DNA of 55,320 nt, filler included, from Catajapyx aquilonaris (GCA_000934665.2; 2 parts of 2 records of this genome joined end to end with filler, not necessarily neighbours in it), one strand, 5' to 3'; shown: positions 687-26,208, counted from the whole stretch's first letter. Notes: a model not told the origin generated them from the letters alone. Numbers and translations: made by a program.

Positions 687-2651
687 ATGACTTGGAAATT
701 GGTTGTCCTTTTATGTAGCTCATTATTCCGTAAGTACTTATTAAATCTAAGGAAGGAATTCAGGGCTAACTTTAGAAATCAGACGGTGCAATGTAAAATT
801 AGGAAACCTTTTGCATTGTTCTGTCCTTGCTGTTCCGATATTTTAAAATTCAATGCAGTTTCAGACACCGTGACGTCAGGAGGTACTGGCGAGGAATTGC
901 GCGCAAAATTATTTGCAAAGTACGATCCTCGCGCCAGTCCTGGAAAGCAATTTGGTAATACGACAATAGTAAAAGCAGCACTGTTCGTGACTGACTTTGC
1001 CGTCGTAAGTATGATTTGCATTAATCCGTACCCAAATTCCACTTAACTAACAGAAGGATCACTCGCAATTCAGGTAGAATCCGAACACACATTGCAATTG
1101 AATCTCTGGTTTTGGTTGGTAAGTTAAATTCTGCTTCTCAATCAACTTGACCGAAAGTAGGCAATGGTTCGACTTTTGATTATTATTTTCTGCCTGGACA
1201 GGAATGGAACGATACAAGACTCGCTTGGAATCCAGCTGAATTCGAGAATTTGGATCACTTACTCATGCCTAAAACTCAAATTTGGGTTCCAGAAACTGCT
1301 GTAGTTAACAGGTTTGGCTCAAATTTACAGCAGCCTTTTCTTTGAGTCGTGACAGCTTGGCTTACAAGTGATTGTGTTTTCAGAGGTTTTGTGAACGAGG
1401 ACACGTATTATTTCGTCCAATCCGCCTATCTGTACCACACGGGTGCGGTATCCTGGACAACACAGACATTTATGGACGTTTATTGCGACACTAACGTTAG
1501 GTTATGGCCTTTCGATGAGCACGATTGTCAGTTGGATCTACGGGCATGGTCTGCAAGCGGGGACCAGATATCCCTCATAGTTAATAACAACTACAACATG
1601 GTAATTACTTGCCCTATAAAAATTGTTGTGCTAAAACACTAAAAGGATATTATATTAAATGTGGTGTGATGCTCATTTCAGATCAACAGTGAATGGCATA
1701 CTGCTTCTCCTAATAGTCAGTGGATCCTAAATCATGTGGATTCGAAGCTAACTTATGCTGAATGTAGTTCCAGCAAGCAGTACGTAGCCTCGTTCAAGCT
1801 CAGTTTGAAGAGAAGATCTTCTTCAAACTTAGTGTTTGTGGCAGTTCCCAGCATGGGTAAGCAGGCACAAAATATTCTCATTACTCTTGTGGGCTCTTGT
1901 TAATTTTGAGTAATCTTCTGACATCAGTTCTGGTGGTGGTGACACTGTCGTCCTTCTGGCTTCCGATTGATTCTTCGGAGAGGCTGGCTCTTGGCTCTGT
2001 AAATGTGTTGTACTCGTTGCTTTTCATTCAGTTCTTGGGAGCTACTGTTCCCAATAATGGAGACGACCCTCCAGTTGTAAGTAAGTACATAATTATTTTG
2101 TCCTGAAGAAAGTGGCTAGGCCAGGAGCACTAACACAAAAATGCAAATCTATCATCTGACTATGTTGAAGTAATTCTTTTTGCATTTTTTTGAACCAACA
2201 TCAGATGATTTTAATAATGCATTTTGAGGTTGGCACTCTTGATTATGTCAGATCAATTGGAGTGTACTGTACAATGTAGACAATTATTCTTTTCCAGTTT
2301 TGTTTTTCTGCGGTTCCATGGTGGTGGTAGCCAGTTCAGTCATATCGACAGTGTTTTTGCGTCTCTTGATGACCGCATATCAAAATGCCTATGTCCCCAG
2401 TTGCCTTCTCGGAAAGTTTGGTTCGTTTTTGTGTCTTCAGAATGGCAAGGTATTAGAATGTTGCACATTGACTTCCCTGCATGATGTGTAATTGAAATCT
2501 ATCCTCTATTTAGATCGAGACGCCTGAGGGTGACGACACAGAAGCTACAAATAAAACGCGGCAGTTCATCCTAATTCATTGTCTGGACCGGATACTCTTA
2601 CTGGTCCACATATTTGCTTTTGTTGGTGTAATCACATTGACTTGTTTGTGA
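687..2651 (+). CDS. Divergent nAChR-like Cys-loop subunit gene 1 (non-alpha type, ~392 aa, 9 exons)
   Basis: Exons 687-729, 859-1004 (alternative in-frame acceptor 865), 1074-1118, 1202-1311, 1384-1600, 1682-1856, 1928-2080, 2298-2449, 2514-2651; all GT-AG with a continuous frame. Signal peptide, EWNDTRLAWNP, WVPE, Cys-loop C-DTNVRLWPFDEHD-C, four TM segments, AATAAA at 2681-2686. Loop C (YAECSSSKQY) has a single Cys. Confidence 0.93.
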
Positions 2652-2801
2652 TGCTGGTGTTATGTGTACAAAGTGCTGCAAATAAATGCAAACTTCTCGC
2701 CACTTCATTGGCGTAATGAAATAGCATGCTGCGGGGGCGGAGCACGAGACAAGTCAAGGGCAGCAGAGGGGGAAAAAACCATTGGGAAAAATAGAGTCAG
2801 C

Positions 2802-23295: not shown

Positions 23296-24441
23296 CCTGG
23301 CCACGAAGCCCTGCGCTTTTGGTAAACTGATTGATAGTCGAGGACACTTCCCAGCCGGCTTGTGCGCACACCTGACTAATATGACCAGAATAAACAAACC
23401 AAAAGGAGGACATTGTTGTCCCCCCTTCTGCTGCCACGGCAACGCCCGACATCAGTTCTTACATCGCAATAAGGAAATTACAAATTACTTCTGGATTTCA
23501 TCTCCGGAGAGATTGGGGACAAAGGAGGGTGATGGGTGGAGCTAGAGGGAGCCCCTAATAACCAAGCACTGTTGCCGTGTAATTATAGCGGCTAATTTTT
23601 CGATTTCTTGTATGACAAAATGTTCAGGCTCATTTAGACATCGGTACTTTTTCTACTATAAAGTAACCTGAATTTTGCAGTGAATGTCTCATCAACGTGG
23701 CAGTAAATACATTTTGGATTGATTACCCAAGGCATATCTGACAGATATGCGATATGTGATTTTCAAAGAAAAATCGGTGCGACTTACCTAGCTGTCAAAA
23801 AACTGTTATGGATATCAGATAAATTAATATAAATTTCAGGAAAAATTATTGAGATGGTGTCACTTTTAATGCGAAGAAAAATGACAAGGAACTTTCTCAG
23901 ACTTGAGGTAGTGTATGTCTCGGTGATCTTACTCCACCTGAAGATTTTTGATAAGTTAGTAGTCACACACATGTCAGGATCACCCAAGCCCAATAATTGC
24001 AATTATATACGTACTCCTCGCTCATGCTGCTTCAGGATATAATAGTTTGGGATTGGCGGTTTCCACCACTCTCAGGTGATTTCCAGTGAAGTGTGATTGG
24101 ATCATTGATGATCACCGCGTGTTCAGGGACATCCGGTTTGCTTGGAATTTTTGGGAAAATTCATTATACACATGAGTAATGTAATAATTATTGCAAGTGC
24201 ATTACCAGCCCATATCAGCTTCATGTCACATTGATCAAACTCATCCTTACCCAAAAGGTATAGTCCGAGTTTTGGCTGCATTATGATGCAATTTATCGAG
24301 CATGCATGCCAAGTACTAATTCAATACGACTATATAGAGCTTCACCTGTTATTGAGGGGGCGGAGAAATGAAATGAACCATCTGCACACATATGCAGTGT
24401 AAATTACACGACATCAGATTTCCAACGGCTTCGGGCCTATA

Positions 24442-26208
24442 ATGCAGTTCGGCCTGTTATTCACACTGCTGATTTGCAGGTTTTCGCTGCCAATCGCTGC
24501 AGGTGAGTTGGCACATTTCCATATGTCCGTATAAATCTGTAGCACTACAACAATTCAGTTTTTCTATGTTGCAGTCAGTGAAAATGGTAATGCAGCCATA
24601 AGGCTAAAGAACGACCTGTTGTCGGGTTACAATAAGGAGTTCAGATCAGTTCAACATCATTCAAACGCAACAATTGTCTATTTTTCCTTAGCACTACTGG
24701 CTTTCAGATATGTGAGTATATCTACGTCATGTATTATTACACAAATTATATCTTATCAATTTTTGTTCACAGGACGAGTACGCATCGAAACTGACTCTGA
24801 CCGTGTGGCCCGAGTTGGTAAGCCAAATGTTAAGACTGGTTGATGTAATTCTGGTAAATTCTGGTAAAATGTAATTGCCTCTAGTAGCAGTGGGACGACT
24901 ACTACCTTCAATGGCAACCCAGAAACTACGGAAACATAACCACCATCCTGATTCCGTCTGGTAAAATATGGAAACCAGACATAACCGTTTATAACAGGTA
25001 CGTGTAACAAACTCTGCTCCAATCGGTGGACTGTATAATTAATGTGTGCTGAGTAACTTCCTGCCAGCCATGGATACAACGAAATAGACCCTTACGGTGA
25101 CATAGCAGCCCGGGTGTATTCTAATGGCACCTTGAAATGGATACCCCGAGCCCTGTTTCAAGTCTACTGCACTCCGAACGTGAGACTTTGGCCTTTCGAC
25201 ACGCAAAAATGCAAACTCCTCATGGGTTCATGGATGCACACCAACGACATATTAGACGTGTATTTAAAAAATCCTAGCGTGAGTAATTCAGCGTAATATA
25301 ATTACTCCCTAGAAAAAATATATTGTCAGCAAATGATCCTACTTCCAGGTTCATCTGGAACAGCTGGAAACAAACTCTGAGTGGTCTATGGATAAAGCTG
25401 ATGGACTACGGACCTTATCGGATTATACGGACGCGCCGCCCGTTGAACTGAGATTCACATTTACACTTAGAAGGAATTACGCCACTTACGTCACAACGGT
25501 TGTGGGACCCGCAATCGGTAAATTCGGTTCGTCCCACGTACGTAATTTCTTGTAACATACGATTTATATTTTTTTAAAGGTTCGGTCGTGATGATCTTGC
25601 TGGTCTTTTGGATTCCACCAAAGAGCCCGGAAAGACTGTACCTGAACTTGCTTAACATCCTGGTGTGCGTTGGATTCATGCAGTACTTAGGAAGAATCCT
25701 TCCCAACAATGGAGATGAAACTCCCAATATCTGTAAATACAGTATTTTCGTATTCTGTGCAATCACTGATGTAGTTGTCTGGTGCAGAACTACCAACCAA
25801 AAATTGATTTTAACAAATACATAAATAATAGAAAATTAAAGTCACATTTGACCAACAGCTTCTGGAATATTCTACATGATTTTTACATTGACTTCTCTAT
25901 TTCTTCCAGTGTTGTTTTTCCGAGATTCTCTGCTGATGGTCACGCTGTCCATAGCAATAACTGTGATTTTTCGCCGAATCGAGTCGTTTCGCCTGGAAAA
26001 GCCTCTTCCAAATGTCCTAACAGGAGGATGGTTAAACAAGGTGCTGTGCATCCCCAAAAAATTCGAAGCAGAATCTCAGGAAGGAGGAACACTTCTGGAG
26101 GAGTCCGCACCTGTCACAAACATGGAAATTATATTAATTTTATTCGACCGCATACTATTCCTTGTGTACTTTCTGACATTCGTCATATTCATTACCGCAT
26201 TCTTGTAA
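24442..26208 (+). CDS. Divergent nAChR-like subunit gene 4 (non-alpha type, ~394 aa, 8 exons)
   Basis: Exons 24442-24502, 24575-24711, 24773-24817, 24888-24997, 25068-25278, 25349-25517, 25580-25732, 25910-26208. QWDDYYLQWQP, WKPDITVYN, Cys-loop C-TPNVRLWPFDTQK-C, GSWMH, no loop C cysteines, M4 LFDRILF; AATAAA at 26217-26222. Confidence 0.94.

What the first reader, a model, noticed from the sequence alone, without database searches (positions are those of the whole stretch)
1074..25517. No complete subunit keeps a full ACh aromatic box, and both vicinal-Cys subunits replace the loop B Trp with Glu
Seen, by manual alignment. Position +7 after the second Cys-loop Cys (canonical cation-pi Trp149) is W in gene 1 (CQLDLRAW) and gene 4 (CKLLMGSW) but E in gene 2 (CNILLETE) and gene 3 (CRMLVGAE). 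Genes 2 and 3 are exactly the ones with loop C CC (YPCC, HSCC), and both also lack the loop D Trp (VNVILSY, LQLLLVM). Genes 1 and 4 keep both Trp residues but lack CC. The loop A Tyr is lost in genes 1 and 2. Inference: two subunit classes, with an acidic residue replacing the cation-pi site, pointing to a ligand other than acetylcholine and possibly altered neonicotinoid sensitivity.
Basis: partly seen in the sequence, partly recalled or inferred. Interest (0 to 1): 0.75.

Follow-up and report, generated by a model that had tools for sequence, protein, structure and literature searches.

The report
Acetylcholine-blind subunits in nicotinic receptor cluster
Two open-frame genes in a tandem cluster of fast-evolving nicotinic-receptor relatives carry glutamate where acetylcholine receptors have a key tryptophan, so they likely cannot bind acetylcholine themselves, but two neighbouring genes of the same cluster, cut off at the window's edges, keep the complete binding site.

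Summary
Genes 2 and 3 have loop C CC, Glu at TrpB (GAA 4014, GAG 6121) and no TrpD; the register is ungapped against 78 homologues and PDB nAChRs. The headline is a window-edge effect. The gene tail at 40-267 belongs to the conserved divergent-group (alpha9-like) subunit on the abutting contig, and the gene cut at 27553 continues on an overlapping contig; both have all box residues. The locus is a lineage-specific tandem expansion (14 models) of the known divergent arthropod nAChR group, probably in a wingless hexapod. Genes 1 and 4 show the ordinary beta pattern. The 'two classes' rule fails: two more CC genes lose TrpB but keep TrpD, and genes 2+3 stop grouping once trait columns are dropped. 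CC without TrpB is still unusual (0 of 132 CC domains in a Trp-biased sample). Most likely genes 2 and 3 are ACh-blind accessory subunits (0.45); a new ligand is the main rival (0.3). There is no expression or functional evidence. The scan noted comparable box loss in another genome (unchecked).

The parts
40..267 (+). g0: last exon (M3-M4 loop and M4) of the conserved divergent-group alpha9-like subunit; the rest lies on G000:C6025 and has TrpD, TyrA, TrpB and loop C YxCC...Y
   Evidence: Matches the C-terminus (residues 360-442, 81% by tblastn) of P0007, which is 94.5% identical to the C6025 model; the end of C6025 and window base 1 run on as one sequence in C9296
687..2651 (+). g1: non-alpha divergent subunit, 9 exons (687-729, 865-1004, 1074-1118, 1202-1311, 1384-1600, 1682-1856, 1928-2080, 2298-2449, 2514-2651); TrpD and TrpB kept, TyrA to Val, single loop C Cys
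2802..4977 (+). g2: CC-bearing divergent subunit, 9 exons (2802-2883, 3166-3293, 3553-3597, 3665-3774, 3848-4067, 4153-4327, 4420-4563, 4623-4798, 4879-4977); TrpD to Ile, TyrA to His, TrpB to Glu, loop C Y-P-C-C with Phe at C2
4014..4016 (+). g2 Glu178 codon GAA at the TrpB position; a second Glu sits two residues earlier, where GABA-rho1 has its loop B Glu
5124..7180 (+). g3: CC-bearing divergent subunit, 9 exons (5124-5196, 5303-5439, 5568-5612, 5776-5885, 5958-6171, 6284-6455, 6605-6757, 6825-6976, 7046-7180); TrpD to Leu, TyrA kept, TrpB to Glu, TyrC1 to His, Trp at C2
6121..6123 (+). g3 Glu177 codon GAG at the TrpB position
22566..23295 (-). Three-exon, 169-aa gene (signal peptide, 12-Cys domain, Pro-rich tail) lying inside the array; Ly6/three-finger-like by cysteine motif only; link to the receptors not shown
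24442..26208 (+). g4: non-alpha divergent subunit, 8 exons (24442-24502, 24575-24711, 24773-24817, 24888-24997, 25068-25278, 25349-25517, 25580-25732, 25910-26208); TrpD, TyrA and TrpB kept, no CC, Glu two residues after TrpD
26505..27553 (+). g5, 5' part (exons 26505-26568, 26722-26840, 26905-26949, 27286-27395, 27466 to the gap). TrpD and TyrA are in the window; TrpB and loop C Y-D-C-C-E-E-P-Y are on G000:C6011, which overlaps 26970-27553 at 97%. Complete ACh box

Best explanation
Genes 2 and 3 are open-frame members of a tandem expansion of divergent, alpha9-like arthropod nicotinic subunits that have Glu in place of the loop B tryptophan and no loop D tryptophan, and they likely act as acetylcholine-blind accessory subunits in mixed pentamers with array neighbours that keep the binding site. 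Shown: the residues, the array, and the full boxes in the head gene and g5. Inferred: ACh would bind only at interfaces whose principal face comes from the alpha9-like gene or g5 and whose complementary face comes from a TrpD subunit (g1, g4, g5 and others). g2 or g3 would fill non-binding positions and tune assembly, gating or permeation, probably outside fast synapses, as Drosophila beta3 acts in gut cells.
For: Both faces are degraded in g2 and g3 (TrpB and TrpD, plus TyrA or TyrC1). Frames, splice sites, the Cys-loop, the loop A W-x-P, the pre-M1 Arg and the M1 Pro are kept: non-box conserved ECD positions 17 of 29 and 19 of 29, TM positions 6 of 12 and 8 of 12. Full-box partners lie in the same array. 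Eleven array genes form one clade (100/99) with a similar M2 (E-R in most, Asn at 7-prime), so the membrane domains look compatible (mean identity TM1-3 44% against ECD 31%). TrpB is needed for agonist recognition in alpha7 (PMC4006026, passages). The divergent Drosophila beta3 contributes to ACh and nicotine responses in enterocytes (10.1101/2023.08.14.553227, passages).
Against: There is no expression, co-expression or co-assembly evidence. The CC pair and an aromatic at C2 survive on very long branches (1.2-2.5 changes per site), which suggests loop C is still in use. The same residue (Glu) appears twice. TrpB loss occurs only among CC-bearing genes (4 of 7, against 0 of 7 without CC), which a purely passive role does not predict. 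g2's M1 and M2 differ from the other array members.
Confidence: 0.45

Rival explanations
1. g2 and g3 have rebuilt pockets for a ligand other than ACh. The loop B Glu would pair with a protonated amine or sense protons or metal, and the array would be a peripheral or chemosensory receptor family, as octopus chemotactile receptors arose from nAChRs.
For: Glu occupies the TrpB position in both genes while CC and a C2 aromatic are kept. g2 also has Glu where GABA-rho1 has its loop B Glu. Almost every array member has a different pocket on a more conserved membrane domain. TrpB was lost at least twice: a single clade of g2, g3, B and C is rejected, p-AU 0.031. The cephalopod precedent is in PMC11526382 (passages).
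Against: g2 and g3 have also lost 12 and 10 of 29 other conserved ECD positions, so loss of one more is not special. B and C lose TrpB through a short deletion, not by Glu. No orthologue was found to show that Glu is conserved. Glu in g2 lies in a Thr/Glu-rich stretch.
Confidence: 0.3
2. g2 and g3 are duplicates drifting under relaxed selection, still open but of little or no function.
For: g2 has the longest branch in the tree. The array turns over: a 94-97% copy of g1 differs at 18 residues including TrpD, with pN/pS 0.41, and a partial g2 copy exists.
Against: At 23-32% identity between paralogues unconstrained genes would have collected stops and frameshifts. Both have clean frames, consensus splice sites and the conserved exon lengths and phases.
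Confidence: 0.15
3. The subunits still form ordinary ACh principal faces, either despite the Glu or because the alignment is off.
For: CC is present; g2 keeps TyrC1 and g3 keeps TyrA.
Against: The alignment is ungapped at top posterior and there is no nearby Trp. TrpB is present in 132 of 132 sampled CC domains. Editing cannot restore Trp.
Confidence: 0.05

Closest known systems
Divergent insect nAChR subunit group (Drosophila beta3, Apis alpha9/beta2, Tribolium alpha9/alpha10, Bombyx alpha9/beta2/beta3, five in Aedes, cockroach beta expansions)
   Same: Best hits and tree position (Blattella alpha9, Tribolium alpha10 and relatives). About 390-440 aa, low identity, local duplication, atypical loop C motifs and a replaced GEK motif, all described for this group (PMC2064938, PMC2045683, PMC12309072, 10.1101/240747; passages).
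   Different: The expansion is larger (14 models; 11 of the 13 placed in the careful tree form a lineage-specific clade). CC-bearing members without TrpB were not seen in 132 sampled CC domains nor in the passages read.
Vertebrate principal-only and accessory subunits (muscle alpha1, mammalian alpha10; alpha5 and beta3 recalled)
   Same: Loss of the loop D aromatic in CC-bearing subunits (PMC4006026) and a defective complementary face in alpha10 (PMC8634148), both from passages.
   Different: Those seen here keep TrpB (PDB alignments of alpha2, alpha9 and neuronal beta3); g2 and g3 lose it.
Cephalopod chemotactile receptors
   Same: An nAChR-derived, expanded family that no longer binds ACh (PMC11526382, passages).
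   Different: Independent origin. No sensory expression or ligand is shown here, and this array still contains full-box members.

Membership tests
Cys-loop receptor / nAChR-like subunit | Cys-loop C-x13-C, PF02931 domain, four TM segments | tested here: met
   Pfam PF02931 on exon 5 of g1-g4, E 1e-11 to 1e-15; full-length HMM alignments E 1e-50 to 1e-109
Divergent arthropod nAChR group (alpha9-like) | Groups with insect alpha9/alpha10/beta3-type subunits apart from core alpha1-8 and beta1 | tested here: met
   Best hits at 24-40% identity are from this group. The branch separating them from two beta1 outgroups is 100/100. Core alpha subunits were not included in the tree.
Divergent arthropod nAChR group (alpha9-like) | GEK motif before M2 often replaced | tested here: met
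   SER, RDR, TER, PER, PER in g1-g5; GEK in the head gene
nAChR alpha subunit (nomenclature) | Vicinal cysteines in loop C | tested here: met
   g2 YPCC and g3 HSCC; also g5 and the head gene; absent in g1 and g4
ACh-binding principal subunit | TrpB with TyrA, TyrC1 and TyrC2 | tested here: not met
   g2: H, E, Y, F; g3: Y, E, H, W. Met by g5 and the head gene
ACh-binding complementary subunit | Loop D Trp | tested here: not met
   Ile in g2 and Leu in g3; met by g1, g4 and g5
Anion-selective Cys-loop channels | PAR motif before M2 | tested here: not met
   An acidic residue is kept at -1 prime in g1-g5; Pro at -2 prime in g4 and g5 only
Functional ligand-gated channel | Expression, pentamer assembly, agonist-gated current | not testable with these tools
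   No RNA holder was listed; spliced proteins could not be submitted for folding
Chemotactile-type sensory receptor | Expression in sensory cells and gating by environmental ligands | not testable with these tools
   Analogy only

The most novel reading that the evidence does not exclude
The array is an independent, hexapod origin of non-cholinergic Cys-loop sensory receptors from the alpha9-like nAChR. g2 and g3 have swapped the cation-pi tryptophan for a carboxylate that binds a new amine ligand or protons, other members have rebuilt the pocket in other ways, and the Ly6-like gene inside the array modulates them.
Probability: 0.2. Interest if true: 0.75.

Novelty: new variant of a known kind. 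Interest (0 to 1): 0.36.

Why it matters
The divergent arthropod nAChR subunits are poorly understood. This array holds a natural series derived from one ancestor: full box, beta-like, Trp-to-Glu and loop-B-deleted. That makes it directly testable whether such subunits are accessory parts or receptors for new ligands. If the latter, it would be an arthropod parallel to octopus chemotactile receptors. It says little about neonicotinoid susceptibility, since the canonical alpha and beta1 genes are separate and their sampled loop A, B and C motifs are intact.

Tried and rejected
Orthologues of g2 and g3: none was found. A g3 exon 5 search gave no hit; the 13-exon profile searches returned only 24-40% relatives, apart from P0007 for the head gene; the metagenome scan found none; a DNA search of the own genome found only the window itself. 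RNA: no RNA holder was listed, which is no evidence either way. The ESM Atlas returned only generic PF02931 clusters. Misalignment, RNA editing back to Trp and an anion-channel identity were considered and rejected. Shared descent of the two Glu residues is unresolved: 84/79 with trait columns, 2% of bootstrap trees without; the 65-row tree is only a quick tree with long-branch warnings. c7542A was left out of the careful trees as a near-copy of c6011E. No structure or complex was predicted, because only unspliced exon stretches could be submitted and these cannot bring loops B and C together. The homologue survey is biased towards Trp, since the search profile was mostly Trp at that column. 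Ten literature searches listed no paper on a CC-bearing arthropod subunit with Glu at TrpB or on nAChR families of wingless hexapods. The library lacks most subscription papers: the cockroach paper was seen only as cited in PMC12309072, and the octopus structure paper was not held. Alignments in figures and supplements were not seen and may hold precedents.

Full report
Observation. I built gene models by hand from the window and checked splice sites and frames. g1-g4 are complete, open, GT-AG genes of 390-396 aa with the same exon phases, 23-32% identical to each other. An HMM from 78 full-length homologues aligns both Glu to the Trp column without gaps at top posterior, and phmmer against PDB chains (nAChR alpha2, neuronal beta3, alpha9) gives the same register. 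A-to-I editing of GAA or GAG gives Gly codons and never TGG (genetic code).

The headline is a window-edge effect. The tail at 40-267 matches the C-terminus of P0007, which is 94.5% identical to a gene on G000:C6025, and the end of C6025 and window base 1 are contiguous in C9296. That gene has TrpD, TyrA, TrpB, loop C Y-E-C-C-M-E-P-Y and GEK. At the other end, window 26970-27553 overlaps G000:C6011 1-584 at 97.1%. g5's window exons hold TrpD and TyrA, and the continuation holds TrpB and Y-D-C-C-E-E-P-Y. One caveat: g5's loops B and C come from a 97% identical allele or recent copy, not from the window itself. So 2 of the 6 subunit genes touching the window keep a full box.

What the locus is. 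A PF02931 search of the genome and the fetched contigs gave 14 divergent models: the head gene, g1-g5, four more on C6011, two on C7542 (whose first 342 bases match the end of C6011 at 98.8%) and two on C2600 (linkage not shown). Best hits are the insect and crustacean divergent alpha9/alpha10 group. In a careful tree of 25 rows, 11 of the 13 array models included form one clade at 100/99, a lineage-specific expansion. The head gene and c2600B lie outside it, unresolved. Canonical alpha and beta1 genes with normal loop A, B and C motifs occur on other contigs. The animal is a pancrustacean, most likely a wingless hexapod (inference). Its alpha9-like gene falls outside the winged-insect clade (SH-aLRT 97 in the quick tree; 84/95), its beta1 is 81% identical to the best insect hits and about 72-74% to crustaceans and a springtail, and Osiris and 7tm_6 searches each gave a single match.

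Testing the 'two classes'. Of the 14 models, 7 have CC. Four of these lack TrpB (g2 and g3 with Glu; C6011 B and C with a 3-5 residue loop B deletion), while all 7 without CC keep it. B and C keep TrpD, and g5, the head gene and c2600B keep both Trp, so CC does not predict loss of both. TrpB plus TrpD without CC is what beta1 subunits show in the same alignment. A non-aromatic loop D is described for principal-only alpha subunits (PMC4006026, passages). g2 and g3 group at 84/79, but in only 2% of bootstrap trees once the trait columns are dropped, so one origin of the Glu is neither shown nor excluded. A single clade of all four TrpB-less genes is rejected (p-AU 0.031).

How unusual. Among 307 Cys-loop domains in 249 of 256 fetched proteins, all 132 with CC had TrpB; non-Trp occurred in 32 of 108 without CC (one Glu) and in 2 of 67 truncated domains. 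The sample is biased towards Trp by the search profile. Against a special meaning of the change: g2 and g3 keep only 17 and 19 of 29 other strongly conserved ECD positions, against 24 for g5 and 27 for the head gene, so they are divergent throughout. They keep the structural core (Cys-loop, loop A W-x-P, pre-M1 Arg, M1 Pro) and an acidic residue at -1 prime, so a cation-type channel subunit that still folds is the reasonable inference.

Mechanism. ACh sites form between a principal face (loops A-C) and a complementary face (loops D-F) (PMC8634148, passages), and TrpB is required for agonist recognition in alpha7 (PMC4006026, passages). g2 and g3 can supply neither face in standard form. I put 0.45 on accessory subunits in mixed pentamers whose ACh sites come from the head gene or g5; the divergent Drosophila beta3 is needed for ACh and nicotine responses in gut enterocytes (10.1101/2023.08.14.553227, passages). 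I put 0.3 on a rebuilt pocket for another ligand. In favour are the retained CC and C2 aromatic, the repeated Glu, g2's extra Glu aligning with the loop B Glu of GABA-rho1, array pockets that differ while TM1-3 is more conserved (44% against 31%), and the cephalopod precedent (PMC11526382, passages). Drift gets 0.15 and ordinary ACh binding 0.05. Nothing here shows expression, assembly or ligand.

Comparison with what is known. Species-specific divergent subunits with odd loop C motifs (FxCC), replaced GEK and local duplication are well described (PMC2064938, PMC2045683, PMC12309072, 10.1101/240747; passages), including expansions in cockroaches (seen only as cited) and Aedes. My ten searches listed nothing on CC subunits with Glu at TrpB, within a library that lacks most subscription papers and whose figures I could not see. 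The scan's own notes include a sea-urchin subunit that lost its ACh residues (e1-7811295, unchecked) and nothing near this place.

Verdict.

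Noticed in passing
window 22566-23295 (- strand): Intact three-exon gene inside the nAChR array: signal peptide, 12-Cys domain ending in C-x-C-x4-C-N and a Pro-rich tail. It is Ly6/quiver-like by motif only: Pfam gave no hit on the exon pieces and the Atlas gave a weak TGF-beta receptor II ectodomain lead at 0.77. Relatives with a conserved first intron lie on 7 other contigs, so its position may be incidental. Drosophila QVR/SSS regulates nAChRs (PMC4735452, abstract).
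   Followed up: partly
window 21762-21880 (- strand): Partial second copy of that gene's first exon and intron, followed by unrelated sequence.
   Followed up: no
L031 (G000:C9296) 1-4735: 94-97% copies of window 390-3304 and 1-1749. The junction near 2915 joins g2 intron 2 to the last intron of the alpha9-like gene (both phase 0), which suggests a tandem duplication with a possible short chimeric gene. One g1 copy has Ile at TrpD and differs at 18 residues (pN/pS 0.41).
   Followed up: partly
L032 (G000:C6011) 2307-6448: Genes B and C: CC kept, loop B shortened with no Trp, loops A and C1 non-aromatic, and M-W-R in place of GEK before M2, so ion selectivity may differ.
   Followed up: partly
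L033, L034, L035 (C6011, C7542, C2600): A subclade without CC has lost the intron between the loop B and loop C exons and carries an aromatic-rich loop C (for example R-W-G-D-D-x-F-F-Y-P).
   Followed up: no
window 24806-24814: g4 has Glu two residues after TrpD, where the head gene and beta1 homologues have Arg, the position linked to imidacloprid potency (PMC4006026, passage).
   Followed up: no
window 35583-35942 (- strand): An open frame recalls the copper-binding region of amyloid precursor protein (recalled; Pfam gave no hit on this piece). It lies on a different contig beyond the gap.
   Followed up: partly
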